IMG/VR virus record: IMGVR_UViG_3300048502_000133
Coordinates: 1-64,000 of that record
Source of the DNA: a virus
Lineage: Duplodnaviria > Caudoviricetes
Length of the DNA stretch: 64,000 nucleotides
Direction: 5' to 3' (one strand)
Shown: positions 26,799 to 62,770 of the stretch, one piece after another
Numbering within the stretch: the stretch's first letter is position 1
How the letters are laid out: each line of letters opens with the position of its first letter
Translations under genes and position numbers: made by a program
The notes under the pieces: model-generated
Database searches by the model: none
Seen by the model: the letters and a program-made list of their open reading frames with translations, nothing else
Told to the model about the DNA's origin: nothing

Positions 26799-26827
26799 AG
26801 CATACCATACGTTGCAACGCGTGTCAA
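26799..26827 (-). promoter_or_regulatory. box promoter 1: TTGACA-17-TATGCT with CGTTGCAACG in spacer
   Basis: Minus strand TTGACACGCGTTGCAACGTATGGTATGCT; palindrome at 26810-26819. Confidence 0.9.
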
Positions 26828-27033
26828 CCCCCATCTATCAAACTCCGCGCGTTTATCTCCTCCTGGAGCCGGTCTTTGAGTGTCTTCAGCGACTGCTGGG
26901 TACGGCGTACCGAACGGCGTAGATCCGCCGGGAGTTCGGAGACGCCTACGTTTTCGACCAGCTGCTGCGCGCGAGAGACAATCGAGAGCACGCGCCGGGT
27001 CTCCTTGAGCAATTGATCATCCTTGAGCGGCAT
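26824..27033 (-). CDS. hypothetical helical protein
   Basis: 69 aa; its TGA stop lies inside the -35 of box promoter 1. Confidence 0.55.
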   Translation of the reverse strand: MPLKDDQLLKETRRVLSIVSRAQQLVENVGVSELPADLRRSVRRTQQSLKTLKDRLQEEINARSLIDGG

Positions 27034-28129
27034 GTGGTCTTCCTAGCGCGTAATCTTTAGTGATCACACCGGCACTGGCGGCGCCGCGCAACGTAGGCGG
27101 CATGTAGAATCTGCCGGTGATCTTGCCGAACAGCTTGCCGCGCCCGTTCGTGCCGTACTCGCGAAAATGCCCGCGCGCGGTGTGCAATCGTACCGTCCTG
27201 GTGGGTCCGCCCGCTTCTCCACGTACTGCCCGCACCTTGGGCGTTTTTAAGGGATCCAGCGTCAAGACTTTATACTCCGTCAGCGGGAGTTTTCCCATGA
27301 TGCGCCGGGTCTTCTGCGCGCCTTCCGGCGCCGCGCGATCCTCCAGCAGGATGTTGTTGCAGTGCAGGAGCGAGAACGCCCAGAGCGACACGCACGCACA
27401 GTACGCACTCCCCAGCTGGTCCTTGCGGTACAGCTCTTCCGCCCTCGCGCTTCCCCTTTTGGCAAGGCGATCCGCCTCCAGCAAGGCCATGATTTCCGGA
27501 GTTTCCACGAACGCACCCAGGCAGAGGTGCCCGTCTTCATCCAGCCAGAAGGACTGGCCTGCGGTGAGCCGGACAACATCATCACGTTTGTACTTGATAA
27601 ACCCGCTGAGAGACATAAGCCACCGAAGACGCGGTTCCTGGTGGTGGCGGAAGAACCACCGGGACGCCGCCGCCGCGCGATCTTCTTTTATGGTAGGCTC
27701 CATGATCTGAGAAAAGCGCTCCGGCGTCATGCTGGCGATGCTGCGTATATCCTGGCACTCAATGAGCGCCGCTGCCCCCTCAATGGCTGGGTTTACCACC
27801 CCGTTCGCGGTGTAGACTCTATCCCACTCCACCCACGTCAGCGGGTATGGAGGCACGAGTGAGCCGTAGCGCTCCGTAAAGAGGGTGGAGAACATCGTTT
27901 CATCGTTCAGATCTCCGGACACCCACTCCAGGGAGAGCCCGGTACTGAGGGTGTCGCTGGCGTAGTTGACCCGGAGCGCTGTTGCCCCGCGTATCACCTC
28001 CAGCACCATCTCTGCCTCTTTGTACGTGTGGAGCGCGTACGGGTTCTTCTTGAGCGCTTCGCGTGGGATGCGCTGATGCAAGAGCGTTTTCTTCCGGGCC
28101 ATCTCCAGGTACTCATCTCGCAGGCTCAT
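27017..28129 (-). CDS. hypothetical protein with C-terminal HxxRGHxR motif
   Basis: ATG 28129 overlaps upstream stop (ATGA); C-terminal RLHTARGHFREY resembles a widespread uncharacterised phage motif. Confidence 0.65.
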   Translation of the reverse strand: MSLRDEYLEMARKKTLLHQRIPREALKKNPYALHTYKEAEMVLEVIRGATALRVNYASDTLSTGLSLEWVSGDLNDETMFSTLFTERYGSLVPPYPLTWVEWDRVYTANGVVNPAIEGAAALIECQDIRSIASMTPERFSQIMEPTIKEDRAAAASRWFFRHHQEPRLRWLMSLSGFIKYKRDDVVRLTAGQSFWLDEDGHLCLGAFVETPEIMALLEADRLAKRGSARAEELYRKDQLGSAYCACVSLWAFSLLHCNNILLEDRAAPEGAQKTRRIMGKLPLTEYKVLTLDPLKTPKVRAVRGEAGGPTRTVRLHTARGHFREYGTNGRGKLFGKITGRFYMPPTLRGAASAGVITKDYALGRPHAAQG

Positions 28130-28428
28130 CCTCGCGATCCCCAGGGGAGACCGTCCGGCGCCCGCTGGGCGTCCCCGGCTGCCTCCATGCAATAGGTACA
28201 GACGAAGCCCGCCGGTACCCAGCCCTGCCCGTCTACCCAGGTCTCATCCTGCAGTTGAGGCAGCGGTAGGATCCGATCGCCGCAGCCCTTGCAGACCACG
28301 GCCTCTACCAGCAACCGGGCCTGGCAGACGGGACAGGCGATCGATCCCTCGATCGCCACGTCCACTACGGTCGCTGCCTGGCAGAAGTCGCACGAAGTAA
28401 CGTAGGTACGAATCATCTGTTGTATCAC
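28126..28428 (-). CDS. Cys-rich zinc-finger protein
   Basis: CDFC, CPVC, CKGC, CTYC; GTGA coupling to SWIM gene. Confidence 0.6.
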   Translation of the reverse strand: MIQQMIRTYVTSCDFCQAATVVDVAIEGSIACPVCQARLLVEAVVCKGCGDRILPLPQLQDETWVDGQGWVPAGFVCTYCMEAAGDAQRAPDGLPWGSRG

Positions 28429-28691
28429 GCCTGTACCCCCTTCTTCTCTGTCCCCGGCACTGCATGAATCCCCCACTGGATCGCCTTCACAACCGCCGCA
28501 GCGTGCTTGCAGACGTTGCCATGCTGGCCCGCCTGGCAATCGCAGGAGAGGTTCGTCCAGGAGCGCCCCGTTACCACGATGGTGTAGTCCTTGACCCGGT
28601 ACTGCCCAGGACGCTCCTTGTAGACAATCAGCCTCTCCGCGACCGCGCGTTGCCAGGCTGCCTGCCACGTATTGACGATCTTCTCACTCAC
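28425..28691 (-). CDS. SWIM zinc-finger protein
   Basis: SCDCQAGQHGNVCKH = CxC-x-CxH; first gene after box promoter 2. Confidence 0.85.
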   Translation of the reverse strand: MSEKIVNTWQAAWQRAVAERLIVYKERPGQYRVKDYTIVVTGRSWTNLSCDCQAGQHGNVCKHAAAVVKAIQWGIHAVPGTEKKGVQA

Positions 28692-28727
28692 TGCCGTTCT
28701 CCTTAGTGGTCCCTGTCTCTACTAAGA

Positions 28728-28756
28728 AGAATACCATACGTTGCAACGCGTGTCAA
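28728..28756 (-). promoter_or_regulatory. box promoter 2: TTGACA-17-TATTCT
   Basis: Minus strand TTGACACGCGTTGCAACGTATGGTATTCT. Confidence 0.9.
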
Positions 28757-28762
28757 GGGGTA

Positions 28763-28963
28763 TCAGACAGATTCCGCAGGGACGCGCGGCGGCGGGCCTG
28801 GTTCGTTGCACTTGGCCCGGAGTCTGTCTATCTCGACAAGCAGGCGCCGGACGCTGCTGATAGAGACGCGGGCCAGATCTTCTTCTTCAGGCGTGGCGTA
28901 CTGCGCGATCGCCCGCATCATGTACTCCCAGTCAGCGTTCAGGCGACCGGGTATTACGTCCAT
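28763..28963 (-). CDS. hypothetical protein
   Basis: 66 aa, overlaps end of the nucleotidyltransferase gene. Confidence 0.45.
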   Translation of the reverse strand: MDVIPGRLNADWEYMMRAIAQYATPEEEDLARVSISSVRRLLVEIDRLRAKCNEPGPPPRVPAESV

Positions 28964-29536: not shown

Positions 29537-30055
29537 CTAGCTTTCTCGCGGCATGGGCACTTGCGCACCGCGCAGGGCCACGACGCGTGGATTAGTCGTT
29601 AACAGACGCAGCACACGCACGCGCGTCAGTGGGTGCAAAATGATCCGGGTGTGGTTTTTCTCGTACCACGCCGCTACTTCCCAGGCGCCGGTGATCGCCC
29701 GCCCAGCGCCCATCCAGTCAGCGACCATCTCTCGTACATAGCGCTCCGGCATCTTGAGCACAGCCGTTTCGCCGTTATCGTTCCGCAGGATCCAATGCTG
29801 CCAGTGGTGCTTATTGGCGTGCTGGTGATGGAGCCATGCCGCGTCGAAGTCCCGGCGCCGCTGCTCCAGGCGGGCGGCGTTCGTGGTCTTCTTGCCATAG
29901 AAGAAGGTCACGTACGGCCCCCACTCCGCAGGGGTGAGCTTTGACCAGTCGTGTAGCACCAGCCGCCACCAGGGGGCGCCCGTCGCCAGCCCTGCCAGGA
30001 AGACATAGTACTTGTGCCGCAGGATATACCGGGCATATTTCAGGTGCGCAATCAT
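29537..30055 (-). CDS. HD-superfamily phosphohydrolase (DUF5662-like)
   Basis: RHKYYV, LHDWSK, WLHHQHANKHHW, EMVADW. Confidence 0.85.
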   Translation of the reverse strand: MIAHLKYARYILRHKYYVFLAGLATGAPWWRLVLHDWSKLTPAEWGPYVTFFYGKKTTNAARLEQRRRDFDAAWLHHQHANKHHWQHWILRNDNGETAVLKMPERYVREMVADWMGAGRAITGAWEVAAWYEKNHTRIILHPLTRVRVLRLLTTNPRVVALRGAQVPMPRES

Positions 30056-32964: not shown

Positions 32965-33274
32965 GCGTGTCCTCCTTTACCGCGTTGTACACGTCTACTG
33001 ACGCCGTCAGCTCCTCCACCCGTTGCAGGTACTCGCTTATGGGACAGCTCCCCGGTACCGCAAACCACGCCGCCGCCGCCACCACTCGCTGCATCGCCGC
33101 ATACTCCCGGCCACCCAGCACGACAGTGCCGGGGACGTGTGCCGGGCAGCGGGTGACACGCAGCGTGACGATGCTGTGCGGTATTCGGTACACCTCCGCA
33201 GGTTCCCCGCAGAGCGCGAACGGGATCTCCTCCTCCGGCACGTCAACTACTGCCCCACATGTTTCCCCAGTCAT
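32921..33274 (-). CDS. hypothetical protein
   Basis: 117 aa, ATGA coupling; C-x-C...C-x2-H. Confidence 0.5.
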   Translation of the reverse strand: MTGETCGAVVDVPEEEIPFALCGEPAEVYRIPHSIVTLRVTRCPAHVPGTVVLGGREYAAMQRVVAAAAWFAVPGSCPISEYLQRVEELTASVDVYNAVKEDTRDKRSPRTGDTGGA

Positions 33275-33711
33275 GACGGGGAGTACTTGCGCGTAGAGTC
33301 CCCTTTATAGCCCCGGATCACCGCCCGGAGCCGGTCTATTTCGCTGTGCAGCGCCCGGATCACTTCGGCGGCGCCATCCATGCGATTGTTACGGGCCACC
33401 CTATCCGGCCTCTCGTGGTGCCCGTAGGCCATCTCCACCCAGGTGTACGGGCTGGATCCGTCTTCGTAGTCTTGAGCCTTGAGCCAGCGCACGAACTGAT
33501 CCCGGTGGTCATCGCCTATGCTTGACTCGCTCCAGTTTTCGTAGGATCCGTCCGACCCCACCATGAACGTGAAGACGGTATTTACAGGCGCCACCAGCGT
33601 GCTGGACACCATGCCGCCGGCAAAGATACTTCGTGCCTTATCGCGTGCTTTCTCTGCCAGCTCCAGAGAGAACGCCGAAACCACGATCGCGTGGTGCTCT
33701 GTGTTGCTCAT
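33271..33711 (-). CDS. hypothetical phage protein
   Basis: AAAGGAGGAG RBS before ATG 33711; first gene after box promoter 3. Confidence 0.65.
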   Translation of the reverse strand: MSNTEHHAIVVSAFSLELAEKARDKARSIFAGGMVSSTLVAPVNTVFTFMVGSDGSYENWSESSIGDDHRDQFVRWLKAQDYEDGSSPYTWVEMAYGHHERPDRVARNNRMDGAAEVIRALHSEIDRLRAVIRGYKGDSTRKYSPS

Positions 33712-33731: not shown

Positions 33732-33760
33732 ACCATAGCACACGTTGCTACGCGTATCAA
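33732..33760 (-). promoter_or_regulatory. box promoter 3: TTGATA-17-TATGGT with variant box CGTAGCAACG
   Basis: Minus strand TTGATACGCGTAGCAACGTGTGCTATGGT. Confidence 0.8.
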
Positions 33761-38316: not shown

Positions 38317-38610
38317 CTAGACTACGCAGAACAACTTATGCAACCCAGGGCGCGGCTCCAGATAGTATTCCGATCGCCGCACCGGGCCAGCGGAGAAGGC
38401 GTACCCTGCAGGGCCGGTGATGTGGACTGCCACCAGATCGATGGTGATGCAGAACCCACCATCCAGCACCATATACGCTCCTTGAGACGTACTCTTCGCC
38501 TCCTCCACTGTCCCCTCAAACGTAGGCCCGCCGGTGATGTGCAGCTCCACCCGATTGCCGGGCGCCAGCCTACCGGCCAGCACGCCTCCTTCCTGATTTC
38601 GCCCCATCAC
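38317..38610 (-). CDS. hypothetical protein
   Basis: AAAGGAGG RBS; first gene after box promoter 4. Confidence 0.55.
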   Translation of the reverse strand: MMGRNQEGGVLAGRLAPGNRVELHITGGPTFEGTVEEAKSTSQGAYMVLDGGFCITIDLVAVHITGPAGYAFSAGPVRRSEYYLEPRPGLHKLFCVV

Positions 38611-38634: not shown

Positions 38635-38664
38635 ACTCTATCACACGTAGCAACGGGTGTACAA
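38635..38664 (-). promoter_or_regulatory. box promoter 4 (degenerate): TTGTAC-18-TAGAGT with variant box
   Basis: Plus strand CGTAGCAACG at 38646-38655 between the two hexamers. Confidence 0.65.
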
Positions 38665-41891: not shown

Positions 41892-42674
41892 TTATGCCCA
41901 GCGATACCCAAACCGGGCGGCACGCGCCGCCAGCGATTGCTCCAGTTCGTACTGGTCTTTCCAGGCAGTCAGGATAACCAGCGCCGCCCCGCGTATGCTG
42001 AGCTGTGACGCCAGAAGATAGATCCCGCGCGCCACTGCGGCGCCGTTCAGGAGTACGTCAGTGAAAATCAACGACTTCGCCGCCTGGGCCACGTCTGCGG
42101 CATGGGCGTGCGACAGCCCGCGCGCCGTCAATGCCCGGACTAACGCGGCGGTGAGATCCCCGGCGCCCGGTACGCCCTTGACACCGTGCTCCAGATACGC
42201 CGCCAGGAGGCGCGCGTGGGTAGCGGTGCGCTCCCCTGCTAGCTGGTGCTCCAGGTCTTTTGCCTTGGTCTTGAGCGAGAGGTGCATGAAGCTAATAGAC
42301 GCGTGATCCCGCCGCAGCAGGCGCGCCTGGAGCGCGTTCGGCACGCCCAGCGCCGCCAGCGCCGCGACGAGTTGCTTGCGCGCGTTGACCATCGGCGTCC
42401 CGCGCGTCTCGCTGAGTATTGCTTCTACCGGGATACCTGTCCGGTTCGCGGTCAGGGCGAACACCAGCCGGATCAACATGTCGCGCCGCCGCTGCTGGGC
42501 GGCGATGCGCGGTGTCTGGGTGCTGCTTTGTTCTCGTGCAGTCCGGGTGCCTTCCAGCACCCAGTCAAAATCAGGCAGGGCAGCCAACGTCTCCACCGGC
42601 GCCGCGTAGGGATGCGGGATCGGCGCGCACTTCAGGGAATTACGATCGTAGCGAAAAGCAACGGCTGCACTCAT
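41892..42674 (-). CDS. protein containing a DnaA domain IV-like HTH
   Basis: AILSETRGTPMVNARKQ...LQARLLRRDHASI matches the R...AR.....RDHS/T signature of DnaA C-terminal domains. Confidence 0.65.
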   Translation of the reverse strand: MSAAVAFRYDRNSLKCAPIPHPYAAPVETLAALPDFDWVLEGTRTAREQSSTQTPRIAAQQRRRDMLIRLVFALTANRTGIPVEAILSETRGTPMVNARKQLVAALAALGVPNALQARLLRRDHASISFMHLSLKTKAKDLEHQLAGERTATHARLLAAYLEHGVKGVPGAGDLTAALVRALTARGLSHAHAADVAQAAKSLIFTDVLLNGAAVARGIYLLASQLSIRGAALVILTAWKDQYELEQSLAARAARFGYRWA

Positions 42675-43408
42675 AAAGGCGTTTCTCTCTTGGCGTGGTC
42701 ATTCAGGATGCGGGCGTACTCCGCCAGCAGCTCCACTGCGAGTGTCTGGGAGACCTGTGCAGGGAGCGGCGGTACGTCCAGATCCAGTGTTTCCGCGCGC
42801 TTGGCCATATTCCGGAGGCGCTGCATCGTGTCGGCGGAGGCGGCGACAGCGGGGCCTTGCGGCAGAGCAGGGAGATCCGCGCGGCGCCCGATCTGGGCGG
42901 GCGGGGTCTGGGGAGATCGCGCACCAGCAGGATACTGCGGCGCCTGCTGTTTGGGGGTGGGGCTTCCGGCCTGTTGACCGGGCGCCTGGGGGACAGGCTG
43001 GGTATCGTGAAAAATCTGCATAACCTGAACGGACTCCGTATCGTCTCCCAGCTCATCTGCCGCGACGTAGCCCACGTCCAGGGCGTCTCTGAGCGCGCGT
43101 GCTTTGGCGCGCGTCTCTGCCATCCTGATAATGTGGGGAACAATACTCTTCCCCACGTTGACGACATTCGCGTCTCCGACACCAGAAAAGCTGCGCTCCG
43201 GAAGCGTGTCGGTAGCGGCAAAAACCGCTTCTGCGGTCATGACTGCCGTACCGCCATTCGTTTCATCCGGGAGCTGGACAACCTTCGTGCTGATGCGGAT
43301 AAGCCCCTCCTCATGCGCCAGGTGCAGCAGCCCTGGGTACAGGATTGCAGGCTTGCCCTGCCGCAGCATGATCCACTGTTTGGTCTCCTCTGTCGTTAAC
43401 GGGCGCAT
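42671..43408 (-). CDS. Rad52/Sak-like single-strand annealing protein
   Basis: LYPGLLHLAHEEG, FSGVGDAN, IIRMAETRAKARALRDAL. Confidence 0.7.
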   Translation of the reverse strand: MRPLTTEETKQWIMLRQGKPAILYPGLLHLAHEEGLIRISTKVVQLPDETNGGTAVMTAEAVFAATDTLPERSFSGVGDANVVNVGKSIVPHIIRMAETRAKARALRDALDVGYVAADELGDDTESVQVMQIFHDTQPVPQAPGQQAGSPTPKQQAPQYPAGARSPQTPPAQIGRRADLPALPQGPAVAASADTMQRLRNMAKRAETLDLDVPPLPAQVSQTLAVELLAEYARILNDHAKRETPL

Positions 43409-43500
43409 CGCGTCCCCCTCTACAGCACCGCGCACCGCGCACTGTCCCCGCCGGATACACTTCTGGCACGCTAGCCAGTGCGCAACTTGCTGGCACCGCC

Positions 43501-43529
43501 ACTATACACCTGTTGAAGTAAGAATACAA
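43501..43529 (-). promoter_or_regulatory. leftward promoter TTGTAT-17-TATAGT (no box)
   Basis: Minus strand TTGTATTCTTACTTCAACAGGTGTATAGT, heading the left arm. Confidence 0.75.
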
Positions 43530-43584
43530 TAGAAGATAGACGTGTAAAGTAGAATAAAACAGAATGGAGTATTGTAGTGTGCTA

Positions 43585-43593
43585 TGGTATAGT
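43585..43593 (+). promoter_or_regulatory. rightward extended -10 promoter TGgTATAGT
   Basis: TG-N-TATAGT about 50 nt upstream of the HTH gene at 43644. Confidence 0.6.
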
Positions 43594-43643
43594 GCTTCTA
43601 CGCGCGGGTATCCCGGTGCGTAGAAGGAAAGAGGGGAGAGCAT

Positions 43644-44009
43644 GTGAGCGCGCAGGCAGCACAACTTGCCCGCAAGGATATACCTGCGGGCGACTGGACA
43701 CCAGAGGCGATCGTCACCATCAAAGAGATAGAGGAGGTGCTGGGCATCCCGAACGCCACTGTCTACCGCTGGAAAAGAGCCGGGCTTATCGAGGCGCGCA
43801 TCCCGTTAGGGGTTCGCCGCTACGGGCTCCAGATAAGCGTGCGGAGTTTACACAGAGCGCTCCTGAGCCTTTCGGAGGATCGCGGCGTGGCTGCAGCCCG
43901 CCTTGAGCGCTATGTACATGCCAGAGAGCACGCGATCGCGGTACGGGGAGGGCAGCGGCTTCTCTCGCCGGTCTTCCTCCCGGACTGGTTGGCGGCGAAC
44001 CCCCAATAA
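43644..44009 (+). CDS. MerR/excisionase-like (HTH_17) DNA-binding protein
   Basis: VTIKEIEEVLGIPNATVYRWKRAGLIEA. Confidence 0.8.
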   Translation: MSAQAAQLARKDIPAGDWTPEAIVTIKEIEEVLGIPNATVYRWKRAGLIEARIPLGVRRYGLQISVRSLHRALLSLSEDRGVAAARLERYVHAREHAIAVRGGQRLLSPVFLPDWLAANPQ

Positions 44010-45185: not shown

Positions 45186-45381
45186 AAATTACCGCTTTAC
45201 ACCATTTCGGTAGATTCTACCGAAATGGCAAAAAAGGGCCATTTTGAGGGCTCTCCATTTCGGTAGATTCTACCGAAATGATCGGTAGTTTTTACCGGAT
45301 CACTATTTATACATATATATACATATAGGTACGATCGATCGATCGCGCGAAGAGACCAACAAGCGGCGGTAGAAACTACCA
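45180..45381. repeat. candidate replication origin: five CGGTA-N5-TACC(G/A) palindromes plus AT-rich tract
   Basis: Copies at 45180, 45208, 45261, 45283, 45367; AT-rich 45302-45327; three overlapping GATC at 45333-45344. Confidence 0.75.
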
Positions 45382-45404: not shown

Positions 45405-45435
45405 CGTTGCAACACCCCCCGCGATACCGTATGCT
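45405..45435 (+). promoter_or_regulatory. box promoter 5: TTGCAA-17-TATGCT with the box over the -35
   Basis: CGTTGCAACA at 45405-45414; TATGCT at 45430-45435. Confidence 0.7.
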
Positions 45436-46001: not shown

Positions 46002-46030
46002 TTGACACGCGTTGCAACGTATGGTACGAT
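46002..46030 (+). promoter_or_regulatory. box promoter 6: TTGACA-17-TACGAT
   Basis: TTGACACGCGTTGCAACGTATGGTACGAT. Confidence 0.9.
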
Positions 46031-47360: not shown

Positions 47361-47389
47361 TTGATAAGCGTTGCAACGTGTGTTATTCT
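47361..47389 (+). promoter_or_regulatory. box promoter 7: TTGATA-17-TATTCT
   Basis: TTGATAAGCGTTGCAACGTGTGTTATTCT. Confidence 0.85.
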
Positions 47390-47427: not shown

Positions 47428-49059
47428 GTGACAGAGTTTTTCCGGCAAGTGCGCGACGGAAGCGCGGCAGTCAGTCACTCCGGCTGGGACGTGGCAAGCT
47501 ATCAGGACGGGCTCCGGGAATTGCCGGGGCTGGCGGAGGCAATCGAACGCAGCACGCCGCTGCTGGAGACTGCCCCCGGTCTGTTCCGGGATGCCTACTG
47601 GCTGGCAAACCAGTGGGTAGACGCCCCCAACGCGCAGATCGATCCGGTGGTACCGCTGCAGGGCGGGCATCGTTTGCATCCTGAACTCCTGCGGGAAATG
47701 GCCGGTACGACCGAATACCGCAAGCTGCGCGCCATGGGTACCGCGAATGACCCATTGCTTTCCGCGATCGCTGCCACCGGGCTGGCGGAGGGTATCATCC
47801 TGGCACTCCCTGAAAGCGCGAAGGAGAAGATCAACCAGGCCCAGCAGCTGCAGGAGCAGTTAGGTCAGCTGCAGCAGGCGGCGAATACGCTCTCCAGCCA
47901 GGCTGAAGACCTGGAAGACCTGGCACAGCAGCTGGAGAACCTGGCACAGCAACAGCCCAGCCCGCAGCATCAGGAGCAGGCGGCAGACGCGGCGGCGGAA
48001 GCCTTCGCTGCGGCCCAGCAGGCGGCACAGGCCCAGCAGCAGGTTGGGGACATGCACGTTGCGATCCAGCAGGTTGCCCTTGAACCAGGCGAAGTGGACC
48101 AGACCAGACGCGGCGCCAAACAGGCACTGGCCCAGGCAGCAGGCGCTATCGAGGAGCTGCAGGAGGGGCAGGAGGCGTTCATGCCCTCCTGGGGGCGTAC
48201 TGGCCCGGTAGGGGCGACTACCCGACAACCGGCGGAGGCGATCGCGCTGATGAAGCGCCTCTCCGCTGAACGGCACCTGGCACTGGTTGCGCGTGTTGCC
48301 GGGCGGCTCATCCCGTCTGTTCTCGCGGTCCAGAAGACCAAGATGGACCATAAAGCCGCAAGTATTACCGACATAACGCGCGGTCATGACCTGGAGCGCA
48401 TGATCACCGGAGAGATGGCCCTGCTGACGGATTCCGGGCTGGAAGACCAGTTCTGGGCGAAGTACTCCGATGACGGGCTGCTGCTCTACCAGCAGGAGGA
48501 GAAGGTACCCCAGGAACGCGGCCCCATCATCGTGGCGATCGATGAGTCAGGCAGCATGGCGGCAGGTATCGGGGACGCGACCCGCCACGCCTGGGCGAAG
48601 GCGGCGGCGCTGTCGATTCTCGCGGTCGCCAGCCGCCAGAAGCGCTGGGTGCGCGTCCTGCTGTTTTCCGATAGCGGCGACCTCGACACGATGGACTTTG
48701 ATCCACGCCCGAACGGCGATCCCGCGAAACGCTGCACGACTGAGCGCCTGCTGGCGCTGGCTAGTCACGATTTTGGCGGCGGCACGTACTACGATGGCTG
48801 GATGGCCCGCGCGATTCGTACCGTCACGAACGAGCAGCCGAAAGCCGATGTGATCCTCATCTCCGATGGGCTCTGCGGGGTTAGCGACGAAAACCTGAAG
48901 CGCTGGAGGAAGCAGCGGGCGGAAAAGGAGATGCGGGCATACGCCATTCTCATCGGGTGTACCGATTACATGGGCACCCTGGGCAGGATCTGTGACTCTG
49001 TGATGACCCTTGAATCTATCACCCAGGACCAGGCAGTCCAGACACTCTCCGTAGTCTGA
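47428..49059 (+). CDS. ViaA-like von Willebrand A domain protein
   Basis: MIDAS DESGS, FGGGT, ILISDG; long Gln-rich coiled coil; GGAGG RBS before GTG 47428. Confidence 0.9.
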   Translation: MTEFFRQVRDGSAAVSHSGWDVASYQDGLRELPGLAEAIERSTPLLETAPGLFRDAYWLANQWVDAPNAQIDPVVPLQGGHRLHPELLREMAGTTEYRKLRAMGTANDPLLSAIAATGLAEGIILALPESAKEKINQAQQLQEQLGQLQQAANTLSSQAEDLEDLAQQLENLAQQQPSPQHQEQAADAAAEAFAAAQQAAQAQQQVGDMHVAIQQVALEPGEVDQTRRGAKQALAQAAGAIEELQEGQEAFMPSWGRTGPVGATTRQPAEAIALMKRLSAERHLALVARVAGRLIPSVLAVQKTKMDHKAASITDITRGHDLERMITGEMALLTDSGLEDQFWAKYSDDGLLLYQQEEKVPQERGPIIVAIDESGSMAAGIGDATRHAWAKAAALSILAVASRQKRWVRVLLFSDSGDLDTMDFDPRPNGDPAKRCTTERLLALASHDFGGGTYYDGWMARAIRTVTNEQPKADVILISDGLCGVSDENLKRWRKQRAEKEMRAYAILIGCTDYMGTLGRICDSVMTLESITQDQAVQTLSVV

Positions 49060-49069: not shown

Positions 49070-49108
49070 AGCCCCTGTGGCCCTGAAAAAGGCGCTACAG
49101 GGGCTTTT
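49070..49108 (+). terminator. probable intrinsic terminator after vWA gene
   Basis: AGCCCCTGTGG ... CTACAGGGGCT followed by TTT. Confidence 0.65.
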
Positions 49109-49445: not shown

Positions 49446-49765
49446 GCACCTACAGGCCCTTGGGTATGCTGATGGTCATGCACTTCTGCGCGCAGTGCGA
49501 GACAGGCAGCGCTACCTCCGCCCTGGAGATAGCGCGGGCCGATGGGGCTGTGCAGTGCCTGCGGTGTAAAACCTGGAAGTCTGCTGATCCGTCCACGCTG
49601 AGAGAAATACAGAAATATCTCACTGAAGCGCGTCGGCAAGGGTTGACACACGTTGCAACGTATGATACCATTCCTGTAACGGAACCGCAGACACCGGAGG
49701 CAGTCCGGGACGGTCCGGGAGCACAGGAGGCAGCAGATGTTCAAGCCCACGATTACCCCAATTAG
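49442..49765 (+). CDS. hypothetical Zn-ribbon protein
   Basis: CAQC...CLRC; 3' part reads through box promoter 8. Confidence 0.5.
   Translation: MSTYRPLGMLMVMHFCAQCETGSATSALEIARADGAVQCLRCKTWKSADPSTLREIQKYLTEARRQGLTHVATYDTIPVTEPQTPEAVRDGPGAQEAADVQAHDYPN
49643..49671 (+). promoter_or_regulatory. box promoter 8: TTGACA-17-TACCAT
   Basis: TTGACACACGTTGCAACGTATGATACCAT. Confidence 0.88.
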
Positions 49766-50825
49766 TACGGTCAAGGCACTGGCGGCGGGTCTGTCCGTTC
49801 TGCCGGATCCAGATGAGGAGGACGTGGTTTCTCCCGTTGCGGTGCCGGTCACTCCAGGCCCGGTCACCATGGCGACACTGGCCCACGCGACGGACGGGAT
49901 TCCGCTCCTGGGGTACACCGTCTGGTGGTATGTGCCCAGCAACGCCTGTGTCAAGCAGGACGCCTGGAACCAGGCGTGGAACGGGCGCGGGCTCCCCAAG
50001 ATTCCGGCGAATCCCTGCACACCGCGCGCGGCGCTGCGGGCCGGTATCGAAGACTGGCTGGAAGATCGGGCGAAGGCGATGGGCTCTATCTACGGGCGGT
50101 ACTCCACGAGTACCGAAGCCAGCCAGGTAAGCCTGATCCGGGTGATCAACTCCGCTGCCAGTCCGGAGACCGTCTTCGTCATCGTGATCGAACAGCGCGA
50201 TCTGGCGAAGTACGGCCTGCAGCACGCGACCGGGCTGCGGGTCTTCCTGAACAAGGAAGCAGGGACGATGTGGTGTACGGTCCAGGGGTCCGGCGGTGTT
50301 GAAGACGTGGTGCCGGAGCCCGCGATCGCGGCGGAGATTGCCCAGTATTGGGGTAAATACACGAACGCCCTGGTAGCGCGGGACGTGACCAACGCGCTGA
50401 ATGAGGCACTGTCGCGCGTCGGCATGGTACGCGTCAAGCGCGAAGGTGGGGTCTATTTTCTTCCCGCCAACTCCCGCCCGATAGCCGATGAACTCAACGA
50501 GTTTCTGGCTGCGGCGGTGCCTGGGGCGTACATCTCGCTGCTGGGTGTCCCGGATGCAGGCGCGTCGAAAGTGGCTCTGATGCGCGGTGCTACAGACGGG
50601 CTTCTGGCAGAGATAAACGAAGAGGCGCGCGTGGTGGCCCGCTACGAGAGCGAGAAGGAGACGGTGCGCGTCAAGACCCTGGCGGGCGCGATGGGCCGGA
50701 TCACGCAGCTGCGGGCGAAGGTCTCCGCTACAGCGTCTCTCCTGGAAATGTCGAAAGACTCCCTGGAAGAGTCGCTAGGGACGCTGACGCGGCGCGTAGA
50801 AGACCTGATGCTGGATGAAGATTAA
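49737..50825 (+). CDS. DUF6744/DUF3150-like protein
   Basis: LLGYTVWW, GLPKIP...PRAALR, VRVKREGGVYFLP; AGGAGG RBS; neighbour of AAA+ and vWA genes. Confidence 0.6.
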   Translation: MFKPTITPISTVKALAAGLSVLPDPDEEDVVSPVAVPVTPGPVTMATLAHATDGIPLLGYTVWWYVPSNACVKQDAWNQAWNGRGLPKIPANPCTPRAALRAGIEDWLEDRAKAMGSIYGRYSTSTEASQVSLIRVINSAASPETVFVIVIEQRDLAKYGLQHATGLRVFLNKEAGTMWCTVQGSGGVEDVVPEPAIAAEIAQYWGKYTNALVARDVTNALNEALSRVGMVRVKREGGVYFLPANSRPIADELNEFLAAAVPGAYISLLGVPDAGASKVALMRGATDGLLAEINEEARVVARYESEKETVRVKTLAGAMGRITQLRAKVSATASLLEMSKDSLEESLGTLTRRVEDLMLDED

Positions 50826-50845
50826 CCCCCATGCGGCAACGCCAG

Positions 50846-50876
50846 AGACCCGGCCAGTACTTCTGGCCGGGTCTTT
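50846..50876 (+). terminator. intrinsic terminator
   Basis: 12-bp stem AGACCCGGCCAG / CTGGCCGGGTCT then TT. Confidence 0.75.
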
Positions 50877-50883
50877 CGCTATG

Positions 50884-50902
50884 CGTTGCAACGGAGTATG
50901 CT
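50884..50902 (+). promoter_or_regulatory. box promoter 9 (weak -35): CGTTGCAACG then TATGCT
   Basis: Box at 50884-50893, -10 at 50897-50902; no consensus -35. Confidence 0.7.
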
Positions 50903-50936: not shown

Positions 50937-51248
50937 ATGATAGACACACCCGCACCACCGGCGAATGAATTACTGACCCTGGCACAGGTAGAAGAGCTGA
51001 CCGGCATTTTGCCTGCAAGTCTGCGCGGGCTGATTCTGCGCGGGCGGCTCAAGGCTACCCGGCAAGTCGAATTAGGGCACGATCTCCAGGATCGGCGGCG
51101 CCAGTCCGGCGGCGGCGGCGTCTGGTTAGTCAGTCGCGGCGATCTGCATAGCTACCTCCAGTCTCGTACCCCGACCGGACGGTACCGGGCAGTAAGCCCG
51201 CAGTACGAAAACCCAGAAGGAATGGATCCACTGGCGCGAACCAGTTAA
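50937..51248 (+). CDS. HTH_17-type DNA-binding protein, candidate box-binding regulator
   Basis: LLTLAQVEELTGILPASLRGLILRGRLKA...WLVSRGDL. Confidence 0.75.
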   Translation: MIDTPAPPANELLTLAQVEELTGILPASLRGLILRGRLKATRQVELGHDLQDRRRQSGGGGVWLVSRGDLHSYLQSRTPTGRYRAVSPQYENPEGMDPLARTS

Positions 51249-52205: not shown

Positions 52206-52724
52206 ATGGCGCTGCAGTACACCGATGAAGACCCCGACCAGCTTCTCGCAAACCCCAGTAATTTTCGGGTACACCCTACCCGTCAGCAGCGGGCTGTTGA
52301 GGCGATCCTGCACGAGATAGGCTACGTTGCGCATGTCCTGGTCAACCAGCGCACCGGGCATATCATCGACGGGCACCTGCGTACGACATTGGCGCTGCGG
52401 GCCGAAGAGATCAGCATCCCGGTCGCGGTCGTGGATCTCTCGCTTGAAGATGAACAGCTGCTCCTGGCGACATTCGACAGCTACGGGCTCTCTACCGTCT
52501 TCGATCAGGAAGTCCTGAAGGAACTCCTGCGGCAGGTACAGACCGAAGACGCGACGATCACCGGGCTCCTTGCCCAGCTGGCGGAGCGGGCCGACCTGTA
52601 CCCCCAGGAGGAGGTCTCCAAACGTGGCGGGAAAACAGACCCCACGAGTGGCGAGGAGAAGGCGCCGCCGGAGCCCGTCTCCTGCACCTGCCCTAACTGC
52701 GGGCACACGTACATGGAGTTATAA
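52206..52724 (+). CDS. ParB/Srx-like N-terminal domain protein 1
   Basis: NPSNFRVHP, IGYVAHVLVNQRTGHIIDGHLR; ends CTCPNCGH. Confidence 0.85.
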   Translation: MALQYTDEDPDQLLANPSNFRVHPTRQQRAVEAILHEIGYVAHVLVNQRTGHIIDGHLRTTLALRAEEISIPVAVVDLSLEDEQLLLATFDSYGLSTVFDQEVLKELLRQVQTEDATITGLLAQLAERADLYPQEEVSKRGGKTDPTSGEEKAPPEPVSCTCPNCGHTYMEL

Positions 52725-52729: not shown

Positions 52730-53236
52730 ATGAGTGATCTCCACTACACCTATCAACCCCCCATGCGTCTCGTGCGCCCGGTATCTAGCAGCCCGTATTC
52801 CGCGTCAGTGGTACCGGAGCGCGTCGTCCCCTGGGAGCATGGGCCGCTGCAAGAAGAAATGGACCGGATTCTGACCAGAGAAGCGATCGCCGCGCACCTG
52901 GAGGCTGACGCGCCGGTCCTTACGTGGGCAATGCCGCTGTGGCGCTGGATCCGGCTCTACGTGTTCGCGTGCCATCCCCGCTGGGGCTTCAGCCTGGGAG
53001 CAATGGGCAGCGGCGCTACGTCCCCGTACGTGGAAGGGCCGCTCCCGGAGACGCTGGGCCTGCTGATCCAGCAAGATCCGCTGGCCTTCATGGGTCTCGC
53101 GCCCGATCCCGACGCGCCGCCGCTCTCGACCATCGCGCACTTCTGTCTTGTTCCGCAGTGGCTGATCACGCTCTGGGAAGACCTGGACAACTACAGCGCG
53201 GCTGATGCTGCCGCCCGTATCCGGGATGCGGCATGA
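52730..53236 (+). CDS. hypothetical protein
   Basis: 168 aa between ParB-like and TerS. Confidence 0.55.
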   Translation: MSDLHYTYQPPMRLVRPVSSSPYSASVVPERVVPWEHGPLQEEMDRILTREAIAAHLEADAPVLTWAMPLWRWIRLYVFACHPRWGFSLGAMGSGATSPYVEGPLPETLGLLIQQDPLAFMGLAPDPDAPPLSTIAHFCLVPQWLITLWEDLDNYSAADAAARIRDAA

Positions 53237-53949
53237 CGCGATCGATCTCCATTCCGCCGCCGCCGGACACGTCCCGGCTCCATGGAAAGGCGCTGGCAGC
53301 CTGGGTATGCTACCGCGACCTGGGCGCGTCGCGTACCCTGGAGGAGACCGCGACCACGCTGGGCTACGCCAGCCGCGACTCCATCAAGCGCTGGTACCGG
53401 GAATATAATTTTCCGGCAATGGCCCGCCAGTGGGACGCGCACCGGCAAGCGACACTGGACGCCGACGCGCTCAAGCACCAGCAGGAGCTTATCCGGGCAC
53501 GCCGCGAAGAACGCCTCCAGATAGCGACCAGTTACCGGATGATGAGCCTGGCAACGCTCAAGCAGCACTACAGTGACGGTACACTGCCGCCCAATGTGGC
53601 CCTGGCAATGGCCCAGTTTGCCTCAAAAGAAGAACGGGCAGATCTGGGCGAACTGGAGACGCGCATCGGTCTGCAGGTGGAGGAGGAAACCGAAGTCCTG
53701 CACCAGCCCGCCGGTTCGCCTCTCGCGGCGCTGCGATCCCTGAGCCCGGAGAAGCGCCAGCTGCTCCTGGAACTCTTGCAGGAAGCCACCGGGTACCGTA
53801 TGGATGAGGAGGAGGATCTGTTCGATGCAGCGTACCTAGAGGATGAAAGCGAACATGGAGACGAGCGTAGCGCCGTTCCTGGGCTGGGCCACTCCGGAGC
53901 TGCAAGCCGCATATCGGGCGGAACAGAGCCTCTATCGCTTCGTGCGTGA
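53233..53949 (+). CDS. terS: terminase small subunit
   Basis: AWVCYRDLGASRTLEETATTLG...IKRWYREYNF HTH pattern; directly upstream of TerL. Confidence 0.7.
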   Translation: MTRSISIPPPPDTSRLHGKALAAWVCYRDLGASRTLEETATTLGYASRDSIKRWYREYNFPAMARQWDAHRQATLDADALKHQQELIRARREERLQIATSYRMMSLATLKQHYSDGTLPPNVALAMAQFASKEERADLGELETRIGLQVEEETEVLHQPAGSPLAALRSLSPEKRQLLLELLQEATGYRMDEEEDLFDAAYLEDESEHGDERSAVPGLGHSGAASRISGGTEPLSLRA

Positions 53950-60608: not shown

Positions 60609-60727
60609 CAGGAGAAACGCCCTGGCGGTATCAGCCCCAGGGCGCTATCCTTGAGTCGGGCTCCGCGCATTGCGCACAACGCCCTTGAGCCCCCAGGTAG
60701 TGTTACCTGGGGGCTCCGTCTTTTCTT
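60609..60727 (+). ncRNA. candidate small RNA between an extended -10 promoter and a terminator
   Basis: TTGCAT (60573) and TGcTAGAAT (60594-60602) upstream; hairpin 60618-60644; terminator 60687-60727; no ATG/GTG ORF after the transcription start. Confidence 0.45.
60687..60727 (+). terminator. intrinsic terminator
   Basis: 13-bp stem GAGCCCCCAGGTA / TACCTGGGGGCTC, loop GTGT, then CGTCTTTTCTT. Confidence 0.75.
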
Positions 60728-60738: not shown

Positions 60739-61044
60739 TTACCGGAGTCTGTCCAGCGCCGCCTCTGCCTGTTCGAGCGCCAATCGTGCCGCCTCTACTT
60801 TGCCCGCCCGGTACCGCAGCAGCCCGCCCTGCTGGGCCAGCGCAAAGCCAATCCGCGCTATGAGCGCCATATCGTCCAGCGTCGCCTCCCGGAGCCGTTG
60901 TGTCTCTATCAGGGCAACAGCGATAGTATTTTGTAGTCTGTCTTCCTCACAGGCTACCGCGTTCGCTGCCTGCTCCCTGGCATCCAGCAGCCGCGCGTAG
61001 CGATCGTTCTGTGCCCGATCGCGGTACGCAGTACCTAGCATCAT
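60739..61044 (-). CDS. hypothetical coiled-coil protein
   Basis: GGGAGGG RBS, ATG 61044. Confidence 0.55.
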   Translation of the reverse strand: MMLGTAYRDRAQNDRYARLLDAREQAANAVACEEDRLQNTIAVALIETQRLREATLDDMALIARIGFALAQQGGLLRYRAGKVEAARLALEQAEAALDRLR

Positions 61045-61155
61045 CCCTCCCCCAGGCTGCACTGATACACATTCTCAATAAATACCCGCCGATCATCCCA
61101 AATTCGCGGCCCCGGAGCCGCCCCGCCCCGAAAAGGCTCTGATACTCATTCTCAC

Positions 61156-61362
61156 CTACTCAGGCCCCTCCCGCGCCTTGATCGTCGCCCCCAGGCACTG
61201 CTGCGTGGTAAAGAGATAGGTCTTCCGGTGGGGCTTCGTTTTCGGCGCGACCGCTACGCTGTAGTGTTGTGGCCCTCGCCAGAAGGCATACGGGCTCACC
61301 TCCGCCTGGACGGTCTCCGTGGTCAAGGCATCGGCCCAGACCTTCGCCTCGTGCTCATTCAT
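61156..61362 (-). CDS. small hypothetical protein
   Basis: 68 aa. Confidence 0.5.
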   Translation of the reverse strand: MNEHEAKVWADALTTETVQAEVSPYAFWRGPQHYSVAVAPKTKPHRKTYLFTTQQCLGATIKAREGPE

Positions 61363-61601
61363 CCGCGCAACTCCCGCGCTAAGTCCTCAGACCAGCACGC
61401 TTGCCAGTCTGTCCAGCGCCCATAGCGCCGCTTGAGCCGGGTCATTTCCGGTAGATTCCCCGCGCTAATATCGGGCCATATATCATGCCAGCAGGCGTCA
61501 TAGTGCCGAAGCTGCGAGGGACATGCCATGGGGCTTCAGCCCCTGTGGTTCATGACCTCGTACGTACAAGGGCTCCGACACCCGGAGCCCACCACCACTG
61601 C

Positions 61602-61859
61602 CTACCGCGCGTACACCGTTGTCGGATCCACCGCGAAGGTCTCCTGCCGCACGATTGCCGCCGCCTTCAGCGCCGCGACCAGCACCTCCAACTCCGCAAT
61701 CTCCCGGACCCGCCCCGCTGCCTGTGCATTGCTGACCGTCTCACGCAGCACCTCGCGGCTATGGCGGATGGCGTCTACCTTCTGTGTGACCGCGTGCATC
61801 GCCTGGTTGATAGCTACTTCCTGCTCGACTGCCGTTGCCTGTGCGGTCGTGGTGTGCAT
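61602..61859 (-). CDS. hypothetical helical protein (in frame with upstream ORF from 62162)
   Basis: AAGGAG RBS before ATG 61859, just downstream of box promoter 10. Confidence 0.6.
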   Translation of the reverse strand: MHTTTAQATAVEQEVAINQAMHAVTQKVDAIRHSREVLRETVSNAQAAGRVREIAELEVLVAALKAAAIVRQETFAVDPTTVYAR

Positions 61860-61899
61860 CGTCTGCTCCTTCGTCTTCGTGTCTTCCTCATCTGCAAGC

Positions 61900-61928
61900 A
61901 GCATACCATACGTTGCAACGCGTGTCAA
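61900..61928 (-). promoter_or_regulatory. box promoter 10: TTGACA-17-TATGCT
   Basis: Minus strand TTGACACGCGTTGCAACGTATGGTATGCT, identical to promoter 1. Confidence 0.9.
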
Positions 61929-62174
61929 CCCCTCCGCCGGTATTTGCTCTCCTGCTTCCCCAGGATCTCCCGTGCGTTCTACACTGCGTACCTGCTCTAC
62001 GCGTAGTACGCTGCCGCGCTCCCAGTGCCGGAAGTTCTGCCCGGCAGTCGGTCCATCCCAGATGACCAGTACCAGCGTCCCGCCGCCCAGCAGGGCGCGC
62101 ACGACGCCCTGCACCTTGTAATTGTTCGCGCGCGTCACGCGATCGCCTGCCTTGAGTACCATCGGGCTTCCCTC

Positions 62175-62465
62175 CTACGCGCTCACCGCCACGCGGTCAC
62201 GACGCACCGCGCGCCGCTCATACCAGTGCAGGGTGCCTACCAGCTTGCCGTTCTCCATCCGCTGGACCCCGTACGGCCCCTGCGCAAAGCGATCCTTGTG
62301 CCCGCGCGACTCGCATGTCTCCGCGTGCCAGCGCTTCTCCCAGACCAACCCGCAGCCCTCGCAGCGCCACAGAGCGCTCTTTACGGTACGCTCCACATAG
62401 GTGCCGGTGATCGTGGGCTCCATGACCGCAGTTTCGCTGGCTTCTACAAACGTACTTTTGCTCAT
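62175..62465 (-). CDS. small Zn-finger-like protein
   Basis: WRCEGCGLVWEKRWHAETC. Confidence 0.55.
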   Translation of the reverse strand: MSKSTFVEASETAVMEPTITGTYVERTVKSALWRCEGCGLVWEKRWHAETCESRGHKDRFAQGPYGVQRMENGKLVGTLHWYERRAVRRDRVAVSA

Positions 62466-62479
62466 TGCCCCGCCCCTCG

Positions 62480-62701
62480 CTACAGGCTTATCGTGCTGCC
62501 CACTACCCACGCTTCAATACGCTGTACCTGCCGGTTCGCCCGGATCGCCCGCCCCTGGGCCGCGCTATATGCTTCTACCCCGTAGGTGCCGCGCTTCCGG
62601 TTACGCGCATCCTGCTCATCACAATTCGCCACATATGCCTTGCGCCGCGCCCGCGCCAATGCTTCTGCCTTATACTCTTCGGTAATGACGATGGTGTTCA
62701 T
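62480..62701 (-). CDS. small hypothetical protein
   Basis: GGGAGAG RBS; first gene after box promoter 11. Confidence 0.55.
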   Translation of the reverse strand: MNTIVITEEYKAEALARARRKAYVANCDEQDARNRKRGTYGVEAYSAAQGRAIRANRQVQRIEAWVVGSTISL

Positions 62702-62741
62702 TGCTGCTCTCCCGTTCGTTCCGTCTCTCTCATCTGGCTAA

Positions 62742-62770
62742 AGCATATCACACGTTGCAACGCGTGTCAA
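62742..62770 (-). promoter_or_regulatory. box promoter 11: TTGACA-17-TATGCT
   Basis: Minus strand TTGACACGCGTTGCAACGTGTGATATGCT. Confidence 0.9.

What the first reader, a model, noticed from the sequence alone, without database searches (positions are those of the whole stretch)
26799..62770. Genome-wide phage regulon: 11 near-identical sigma70 promoters carrying the palindrome CGTTGCAACG
Seen: a 29-bp promoter (consensus TTGACA CGCGTTGCAACGTATGG TATGCT, usually a 17-bp spacer) recurs at 26799, 28728, 33732, 38635, 61900, 62742 (minus strand) and 45405, 46002, 47361, 49643, 50884 (plus strand); copies 1 and 10 are identical over 29 bp though 35 kb apart. The palindrome usually sits 2 bp after the -35, always upstream of an RBS and the first gene of an accessory unit. 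I saw no copy in the tail/lysis region (1-23 kb) or in the terminase-portal operon. It does not match the LexA (Gram-positive type), CIRCE, Rex or NrdR boxes I know. Inference: one operator controls a dispersed early host-takeover/counter-defence programme (ARH, methyltransferase, nucleotidyltransferase + HD, KTSC-MazG, SWIM, AAA+/vWA/DUF6744), comparable in logic to mycobacteriophage start-associated sequences or T4 early promoter elements but with its own sequence.
Basis: partly seen in the sequence, partly recalled or inferred. Interest (0 to 1): 0.85.

Follow-up and report, generated by a model that had tools for sequence, protein, structure and literature searches.

The report
Repeated phage promoter with built-in operator
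An uncultured 85-kb phage starts eleven of its non-structural gene units from copies of one strong host-type promoter that carries the same 10-base palindrome, most likely the docking site of one repressor that can switch them all off together; this is a real feature but a familiar kind of phage gene control.

Summary
CGTTGCAACG occurs 8 times exactly (0.04 expected) and 3 more times with one mismatch in promoter context. Nine copies form one 29-bp module: TTGACA, a 17-bp spacer holding the box, TGn, then TATGCT-like. A matrix built from those nine finds only those nine. In the other two promoters the box sits 4 bp nearer the -10 or on the -35, so it behaves as a separate element. Every site faces a gene with a ribosome-binding site 12-57 nt downstream, and terminator hairpins bound several units.

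Best reading (0.6): a repressor operator inside the phage's early promoters. The regulator is not identified. The only recognisable DNA-binding proteins are two HTH_17 winged-helix proteins. I favour gp43644, which is MerR-like, has a long C-terminal helix and is expressed from a box-less promoter. The "counter-defence programme" label is unsupported, because most of the genes served have no known function. No related phage could be found, so conservation could not be tested.

Dispersed promoter-operator regulons are known (RK2 KorA, P1 C1, phiC31), and this scan has noted many like it on other DNA. It is a new member of a known kind.

The parts
26799..26827 (-). Box promoter 1 (TTGACA-17-TATGCT, box 26810-26819); heads 26119-26757 and the unit down to the ARH gene 23120-24127
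28728..28756 (-). Box promoter 2 (-10 TATTCT, box 28739-28748); heads SWIM gene 28425-28691
33732..33760 (-). Box promoter 3 (TTGATA / TATGGT, variant box CGTAGCAACG 33743-33752); heads 33271-33711 and the unit that includes DUF5662 29537-30055
38635..38663 (-). Box promoter 4, the weakest canonical copy (TGTACA / TAGAGT, variant box CGTTGCTACG 38646-38655); heads 38317-38610
   Evidence: 32 bits
45407..45435 (+). Variant promoter: the box (45405-45414, CGTTGCAACA) overlaps or supplies the -35 (TTGCAA), 17-bp spacer, -10 TATGCT 45430-45435; heads 45484-45972
   Evidence: promoter reading is inference from the sequence
46002..46030 (+). Box promoter (TTGACA / TACGAT, box 46010-46019); heads MoxR-type AAA+ gene 46096-47313
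47361..47389 (+). Box promoter (TTGATA / TATTCT, box 47369-47378); heads vWA gene 47428-49059
49643..49671 (+). Box promoter (TTGACA / TACCAT, box 49651-49660); heads DUF6744-like gene 49737-50825
50874..50902 (+). Variant promoter: weak -35 TTTCGC, box 50884-50893 shifted 4 bp towards the -10 TATGCT (50897-50902); heads HTH_17 gene 50937-51248 and possibly reads on into the terminase genes
61900..61928 (-). Box promoter identical to promoter 1 (box 61911-61920); lies inside ORF 61602-62162, upstream of internal ATG 61853 that has an RBS
62742..62770 (-). Box promoter (box 62753-62762); heads 62480-62701; sits back to back with the first head-module gene (62793, + strand)
43644..44009 (+). gp43644, 121 aa, HTH_17/MerR-like winged helix plus a long C-terminal helix; preferred candidate regulator; expressed from the box-less central region
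50937..51248 (+). gp50937, 103 aa, minimal Xis-like HTH_17 with a disordered tail; second candidate regulator; would be autoregulated through box 50884
43409..43643 (.). AT-rich divergent region without a box, between the true leftward gene 42671-43435 and the HTH gene; holds promoter-like sites 43548-43521 (-) and 43503-43530 (+)
49070..49105 (+). Terminator hairpin with T-run after the vWA gene
50844..50876 (+). Terminator hairpin after the DUF6744-like gene; its tail overlaps the -35 of promoter 50874-50902
23071..23108 (.). Strong two-way terminator (16 bp stem) that ends both the tail operon and the leftward arm
60687..60716 (.). Strong two-way terminator between the terminase-portal block and the small leftward cassette 60739-62701

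Best explanation
The 29-bp module is a strong promoter for the host's housekeeping RNA polymerase. The 10-bp dyad CGTTGCAACG in its spacer (centre near -24.5) is the operator of one sequence-specific dimeric repressor.

On infection no repressor is present, so all eleven units fire at once. As the repressor accumulates (or if it is kept present in a carrier state) it occupies the core promoters, blocks or distorts the RNA polymerase contact, and shuts the units off together. Sites with one changed half-site (33743, 38646, 45405) and sites with a shifted box (45405, 50884) would be repressed to different degrees.

The repressor is most likely phage-encoded. I favour gp43644, a MerR-like winged helix with a long helix that could dimerise, made from a box-less promoter so that it escapes its own repression. 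gp50937, behind box 50884, is the alternative and would be autoregulated.

What is shown: the sites, their geometry and their restriction to promoters. What is inferred: promoter activity, repression, and the identity of the binder.
For: - Spacer conservation. The spacer positions of the box are as conserved as the -35 and -10 hexamers, while bases just outside the 29 bp are not conserved: information 0.1-0.4 bits outside against 1.7-2.4 inside. The copies are therefore not recent duplications of longer DNA, and the spacer is under its own constraint.
- Separable element. The same 10-mer sits in a different register in two promoters, shifted -4 bp at 50884 and +8 bp at 45405.
- Restriction to promoters. 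All 8 exact copies are in promoters and none lies alone in a gene.
- Symmetric variants. The two one-mismatch variants at 33743 and 38646 change the symmetry-related positions 4 and 7 of the dyad.
- Strong promoters. They are the best sigma70-like sites in the window, and all have an extended -10. Consensus promoters need no activator.
- Precedent for size. A 12-bp symmetric operator is enough for a 101-residue dimeric HTH repressor acting at seven promoters (KorA; PMC2665229).
- Few candidates. The only recognisable DNA-binding proteins in six-frame searches of the contig are the two HTH_17 proteins plus the Rep-like protein.
- gp43644. Its model has a winged helix plus a helix at residues 80-101. 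Its nearest structural look-alikes are MerR-type proteins of about 120 aa, a family whose operators lie in promoter spacers.
Against: - No binding, transcription-start or expression data exist.
- The regulator is a guess. Both HTH proteins lack detectable homologues. The models are of low confidence (pLDDT about 61) and the fold matches are not significant (E 0.06 or worse).
- HTH_17 proteins such as Xis and BldC often bind direct repeats rather than dyads.
- A 10-bp dyad is short.
- No related phage was found, so conservation or co-variation of box and protein could not be tested.
- The host is unknown, so a host factor cannot be excluded.
- The contig is rated 79% complete, so a regulator gene could lie off the contig.
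Confidence: 0.6

Rival explanations
1. The box is the operator of a host transcription factor, so the phage couples its early units to a host signal, as some phages do with LexA boxes.
For: No phage regulator is identified. The same TTGACA-NN-CGTTGCAACGT-RTG-N-TAnnnT arrangement occurs in three unrelated low-GC sequences, one of them in front of a leaderless XRE-type HTH gene.
Against: Those outside hits are at the number expected by chance for the pattern: 1 in viral contigs, 2 in genome contigs, and 2 in metagenome contigs that are copies of the viral one. The two bacterial genomes concerned hold the 12-mer once or not at all, so there is no sign of a regulon. The box matches no operator consensus I know (own knowledge), and the literature search gave nothing relevant. 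Placing a host repressor site on every early promoter would be costly for a lytic phage.
Confidence: 0.12
2. There is no separate operator. The whole 29 bp is one promoter family kept alike by descent, by gene conversion, or because the polymerase (perhaps phage-modified) prefers this spacer. The palindrome is incidental.
For: In nine of eleven sites the box is in a fixed register. The outer symmetric bases are explained by the -35 end and the extended -10 TG. Two copies are identical over 29 bp.
Against: The box occurs in two other registers with otherwise different promoter sequence. The flanks are unrelated while the spacer is near-invariant. A perfect 10-bp dyad in a spacer is not expected from polymerase contacts (own knowledge).
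Confidence: 0.12
3. The box binds a phage factor that does something other than simple repression. Possibilities are MerR-style twisting of the spacer to tune or activate, a switch that also serves the adjacent late operon at 62793, or a recombination or module-exchange signal for promoter-led cassettes.
For: The preferred candidate is MerR-like. Box promoter 62742-62770 lies 22 bp from the first head-module gene, which has no recognisable promoter of its own. The units are promoter- and terminator-bounded cassettes.
Against: The spacers are the optimal 17 bp, not the 19-20 bp that MerR-type activation needs (own knowledge). There are no relatives to show cassette exchange. No second late motif was found.
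Confidence: 0.1

Closest known systems
KorA and its OA operators on IncP plasmid RK2/RP4 (PMC2665229)
   Same: A small dimeric HTH repressor recognises a short (12-bp) perfectly symmetric operator placed in the core region of seven dispersed strong promoters. Operators with one altered half-site bind more weakly, which gives graded control.
   Different: It is a plasmid, not a phage. KorA works with KorB. KorA is not an HTH_17 protein. No sequence relation between the operators or the proteins was found here.
Streptomyces phage phiC31 early promoters with conserved inverted repeats bound by the c repressor (own knowledge; no open paper found)
   Same: A family of near-identical early promoters is spread over the genome and associated with a repeated dyad bound by one phage repressor.
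   Different: The phiC31 early promoters are not housekeeping-sigma-like, the dyads are 17 bp and lie beside rather than inside the spacer, and phiC31 is temperate with an integrase. No integrase was found here.
Cluster O mycobacteriophages (Corndog group), PMC4351075
   Same: They have eight to nine strongly predicted SigA-like promoters that divide long arms into operons, plus a repeated dyad of unknown binder.
   Different: There the 17-bp dyad (over 30 copies) is scattered in and between genes and is not part of the promoters. Here the dyad occurs only inside promoters.
Cluster A mycobacteriophage stoperators (PMC9283540, PMC6550527)
   Same: Many copies of one repressor site are dispersed over a phage genome, giving genome-wide silencing.
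   Different: Stoperators are asymmetric 13-14-bp sites bound by a monomer. They are oriented with transcription and mostly lie within transcribed regions, where they stop elongation. Here the site is symmetric and sits in the promoter.
MerR-family promoter-operator arrangement (own knowledge; look-alikes)
   Same: A dyad operator lies between -35 and -10, and the candidate binder has a MerR-like winged helix followed by a long helix.
   Different: MerR-type promoters have 19-20-bp spacers and are activated by DNA twisting. Here the spacer is 17 bp. Family membership of gp43644 rests on weak scores.

Membership tests
Housekeeping (sigma70-type) bacterial promoter | -35 close to TTGACA and -10 of form TAnnnT, separated by 16-18 bp | tested here: met
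   Nine sites have 9-10 of 12 matches and a 17-bp spacer. Two variants have a good -10 and a weak -35.
Housekeeping (sigma70-type) bacterial promoter | Placed upstream of and co-oriented with a gene; short leader with a ribosome-binding site | tested here: met
   11 of 11 sites, with leaders of about 12-57 nt.
Housekeeping (sigma70-type) bacterial promoter | Transcription start mapped 6-8 nt after the -10 | not testable with these tools
   No RNA data; the host is unknown.
Global repressor regulon with the operator in the core promoter (KorA / P1 C1 / phiC31 type) | One repeated site overlapping the core promoter at many dispersed promoters | tested here: met
   11 sites, all within -37 to -16 of the predicted starts, and none outside promoters.
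Global repressor regulon with the operator in the core promoter (KorA / P1 C1 / phiC31 type) | The site is separable from the polymerase-recognition elements | tested here: met
   The box occurs in three registers relative to the -10, and the spacer is conserved while the flanks are not.
Global repressor regulon with the operator in the core promoter (KorA / P1 C1 / phiC31 type) | A cognate DNA-binding repressor is encoded by the element | tested here: inconclusive
   Two HTH_17 proteins are present, but nothing links either to the box. There are no homologues for a co-occurrence test.
Global repressor regulon with the operator in the core promoter (KorA / P1 C1 / phiC31 type) | Site and arrangement are conserved in related elements | tested here: inconclusive
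   No relatives were found. The 80 TerL-related loci share only TerL with this phage, and pattern scans are at chance level.
Cluster A stoperators | Asymmetric 13-14-bp site, oriented with transcription, mostly inside transcribed regions | tested here: not met
   The site is a perfect dyad and is found only in promoter spacers.
Start-associated sequences of Cluster K mycobacteriophages | Conserved word immediately upstream of the start codon, overlapping the ribosome-binding site (own knowledge) | tested here: not met
   The box lies about 40-90 bp upstream of the start codons, between -35 and -10.
MerR-type activatable promoter | Dyad operator inside the spacer | tested here: met
MerR-type activatable promoter | Over-long 19-20-bp spacer (own knowledge) | tested here: not met
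   The spacer is 17 bp in all sites.
MerR-type activatable promoter | A MerR-family regulator is present | tested here: inconclusive
   gp43644 scores 28.1 bits against HTH_17 (cut-off 27) and 19 bits against MerR (cut-off 28.2). Fold matches to BldC, CvkR and SoxR have E 0.06-0.14.

The most novel reading that the evidence does not exclude
A MerR-like protein (gp43644) binds the dyad in an already optimal 17-bp spacer and switches eleven promoters off by twisting them out of register. This would be the reverse of classical MerR activation. The promoter-operator-terminator units would also act as portable cassettes that let new accessory genes join the regulon at once.
Probability: 0.12. Interest if true: 0.55.

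Novelty: new member of a known kind. Interest (0 to 1): 0.33.

Why it matters
The finding gives a clean map of the transcription units of an otherwise opaque singleton phage, most of whose early genes have no known function. It marks about eleven units as co-regulated, including the MoxR-vWA-DUF6744 trio, each gene of which has its own promoter. The 29-bp module with a short built-in operator could serve as a compact repressible promoter part once its binder is found. It does not open a new principle: dispersed promoter-operator regulons are known in plasmids and phages, and this scan has already recorded many of the same design on other DNA.

Tried and rejected
- Near and protein-level searches of GenBank phages: no relatives. 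TerL is at most 46% identical, there is no match to the DUF6744-like gene, and MoxR gives only distant hits.
- Portal search of IMG/VR: none.
- TerL-profile search of IMG/VR: 80 loci, all sharing only TerL with this phage.
- Pattern scans of viral, genome and metagenome collections for the promoter-box word: 1, 2 and 2 hits, which is chance level. All are in unrelated lower-GC DNA. The two bacterial genomes concerned hold one or no copy of the 12-mer.
- Homologue searches for both HTH proteins: self only.
- Literature search for the box: only primers.
- Rfam: no match in the window.
- A second repeated intergenic motif that could mark late promoters: none found.
- The ParB-like protein 52206-52724 as the binder: rejected. 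It is a short ParB-nuclease-type domain without a recognisable HTH and sits in the packaging block.
- One-mismatch boxes at 38106, 40357, 44065, 44597, 59219 and 65976: inside genes, with no promoter context, and at about the number expected by chance.
- An extended 18-20-bp palindrome: rejected, because the outer bases are promoter elements and are not kept in the shifted sites.
Full report
**What the window is.** The window is the first 64 kb of an 85,430-bp viral contig with 63% G+C. IMG/VR classes it as linear, and CheckV rates it 79% complete. Both ends carry the template-switch adapter AAGCAGTGGTATCAACGCAGAGTAC.

A gene map based on third-position G+C, corrected at 42.7-43.4 kb, gives this layout:
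- A rightward structural and lysis block at 1-23,047.
- A leftward arm from about 43.4 kb down to 23.1 kb.
- A rightward arm from 43.6 to 60.4 kb. It holds an HTH gene, a replication-initiator-like gene, MoxR, vWA, a DUF6744-like gene, a second HTH gene, a ParB-nuclease-like gene, the terminase and the portal.
- A small leftward cassette at 60.7-62.7 kb.
- The head module from 62.8 kb to the contig end.

Strong two-way terminators sit at 23071-23108 and 60687-60716.

**The observation.**
- CGTTGCAACG occurs 8 times exactly against 0.04 expected. It is the most over-represented 10-mer of the contig, at 82-fold.
- The 29-mer consensus recurs, and 26799-26827 and 61900-61928 are identical.
- Three more boxes with one mismatch lie in promoter context, at 33743, 38646 and 45405.
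- A matrix from the nine canonical sites finds only those nine in the whole contig. They score 32-55 bits, nothing else exceeds 8 bits, and the shuffle maximum is 3.3.
- No site lies at 1-23 kb or 64-85 kb.
- All 11 sites face the next gene, which has a Shine-Dalgarno sequence, with predicted leaders of about 12-57 nt.
- Ten sites lie in gaps that together make up about 10.8% of the contig.
- The eleventh (61900-61928) lies in an ORF (61602-62162) that stays open and coding-like across the promoter. Its internal ATG at 61853 has its own ribosome-binding site.
- In the generic sigma70 scan, every 10-of-12 hit in the window is a box promoter, and all have TG one base before the -10.

**Anatomy.** The canonical module reads TTGACA, CG, CGTTGCAACG, T(A/G)TG, N, TATGCT-like, with a 17-bp spacer and the dyad centre near -24.5.

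Information content is 1.7-2.4 bits across the box, as high as in the hexamers. It is 0.1-0.4 bits just outside the 29 bp. The copies are therefore not recent duplications of longer DNA, and the spacer is constrained in its own right.

The apparent longer palindrome (CAC...GTG) is made of the last bases of the -35 and the TG of the extended -10. It is not kept where the box is shifted, so the independent element is the 10-mer.

Two promoters carry the box in another register:
- At 50874-50902 the box is 4 bp closer to TATGCT, with a weak -35 (TTTCGC).
- At 45407-45435 the box itself supplies the -35 (TTGCAA), 17 bp before TATGCT.

The variants at 33743 and 38646 change the symmetry-related positions 4 and 7 of the dyad.

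Hairpins with T-runs follow the vWA gene (49070-49105) and the DUF6744-like gene (50844-50876). The right-arm genes are therefore separate promoter- and terminator-bounded units.

**What the promoters serve.** Recognisable products are:
- SWIM (28425).
- MoxR AAA+ (46096).
- vWA (47428).
- DUF6744-like (49737).
- HTH_17 (50937).
- Further downstream within units: KTSC (34012), DUF5662 (29537), a methyltransferase-like gene (24131) and ADP-ribosylglycohydrolase (23120).

Most other genes have no Pfam or PHROG function. The label 'host-takeover/counter-defence' is therefore a guess.

The central AT-rich divergent region (43409-43643) heads the leftward arm and the HTH-Rep unit. It has promoter-like sites but no box.

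No strong terminator separates promoter 50874-50902 from the terminase genes, so that operon may be fed by a box promoter.

No second repeated intergenic motif was found. The promoter of the head and tail genes remains unknown.

**Who binds the box.** Six-frame searches of the contig find no HTH_3, RHH_1, sigma70 region 4, tyrosine integrase or resolvase. They find only two HTH_17 domains, at 43644 and 50937. The Rep-like protein also has an HTH_36/DnaD-like C-terminus. Neither HTH_17 protein has homologues in the word-based search.

- **gp43644.** Without an alignment, the model (pLDDT 61) shows a winged helix followed by a long helix at residues 80-101. Its best fold matches are BldC, CvkR and SoxR, none of them significant (E 0.06-0.14). 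Atlas look-alikes by structure are proteins of about 120 residues named 'HTH merR-type'.
- **gp50937.** The model shows a minimal Xis-like winged helix with a disordered tail.

I prefer gp43644 as the binder, for three reasons. A dyad calls for a dimer. MerR-family operators lie in promoter spacers. Its own promoter lacks the box. This preference is inference only (about 0.3). gp50937, behind box 50884, would be an autoregulated alternative.

**Mechanism proposed.**
1. Host polymerase fires all box promoters at entry.
2. The repressor accumulates and occupies the spacer dyads.
3. The eleven units are shut off together, with weaker or shifted operators responding less.

A protein bound at -24.5 on a consensus 17-bp promoter is expected to repress (own knowledge: the Arc operator in P22 Pant, and synthetic promoters with lacO or tetO in the spacer). 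If the phage can persist in a carrier or lysogenic state, the same protein would silence these units. No integrase is present in the 85 kb, but the contig may be incomplete.

**Rivals.**
- **Host factor.** The promoter-box word occurs in three unrelated low-GC sequences, once in front of a leaderless XRE-type gene. Those counts are at chance level, and the genomes concerned have one or no copy of the 12-mer.
- **A promoter family without a separate operator.** This is weakened by the shifted boxes and the unrelated flanks.
- **A non-repressive role.** Examples are MerR-like tuning, coupling to the adjacent late operon at 62793, or cassette exchange. None of these can be tested here.

**Comparison with the known.**
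- **RK2/RP4 KorA** is the closest in logic. A 101-residue dimer binds a 12-bp symmetric operator at seven promoters, with weaker variant operators (PMC2665229).
- **phiC31** repeated early promoters with repressor-bound inverted repeats, and the **P1 C1** regulon, are the closest phage cases (own knowledge).
- **Cluster O** mycobacteriophages have SigA-like promoters and a repeated dyad, but the two are separate (PMC4351075).
- **Cluster A stoperators** are asymmetric and act on elongation.
- **Start-associated sequences** sit at translation starts and are a poor match.

Earlier notes of this scan describe many phages with a dyad in the spacer of a repeated promoter. The design is therefore common, and this is a new member with its own word.

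**Limits.** There are no relatives: 80 TerL-related loci share only TerL with this phage.

Noticed in passing
window 1-25 and the last 25 bases of the 85,430-bp contig: Both contig ends carry the SMART/template-switch adapter AAGCAGTGGTATCAACGCAGAGTAC, in inverted orientation. The record therefore has untrimmed library adapter, and its ends are not proven genome termini.
   Followed up: no
window 45203-45345: Two copies of a 26-bp palindrome (CCATTTCGGTAGATTCTACCGAAATGG) are followed by an AT-rich TATACATATATATACATATA stretch and three tandem GATC. All of this lies just after the DnaD/HTH_36 replication-initiator-like gene 44049-45185. It is a candidate origin of replication, and it also contains a terminator-like hairpin at 45270-45288.
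   Followed up: partly
window 5617-5916 and 6265-6564: A 300-nt direct repeat at 99% identity, spaced 648 nt apart, which is exactly the length of gene 5729-6376. It is either a tandem duplication in the tail-fibre region or an assembly artefact.
   Followed up: no
window 42671-43435 (-) versus 42695-43399 (+): Two overlapping ORFs on opposite strands. The minus-strand product looks like a real protein (PHROG 22961, unknown function) and the plus-strand one looks like antisense junk. The leftward arm therefore starts at about 43.4 kb and the divergent control region is 43409-43643.
   Followed up: partly
window 61602-62162 (-): The ORF stays open and coding-like across box promoter 61900-61928. 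It could give a 186-residue protein plus an 83-residue C-terminal form from the internal promoter and ATG 61853.
   Followed up: partly
window 15662-18616 (+): A 984-residue ORF at 70% G+C, built of many degenerate 51-60-nt repeats rich in Gly, Ala and Pro. It has no Pfam match and is probably a repetitive tail or fibre protein.
   Followed up: no
window 53233-53949 (+): A 238-residue ORF with an N-terminal HTH-like segment that overlaps the called start of the large terminase by about 95 nt. It is a likely small terminase subunit, and the TerL start may be later than 53855 (reading of the sequence).
   Followed up: no
L002 1761-2000 (-): In an unrelated bacterial MAG, a consensus promoter with ACGTTGCAACGT in its spacer is followed, apparently without a leader, by a 65-residue XRE-type HTH gene. 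This is a possible autoregulated pair using the same dyad word. It is the only copy in that genome.
   Followed up: partly
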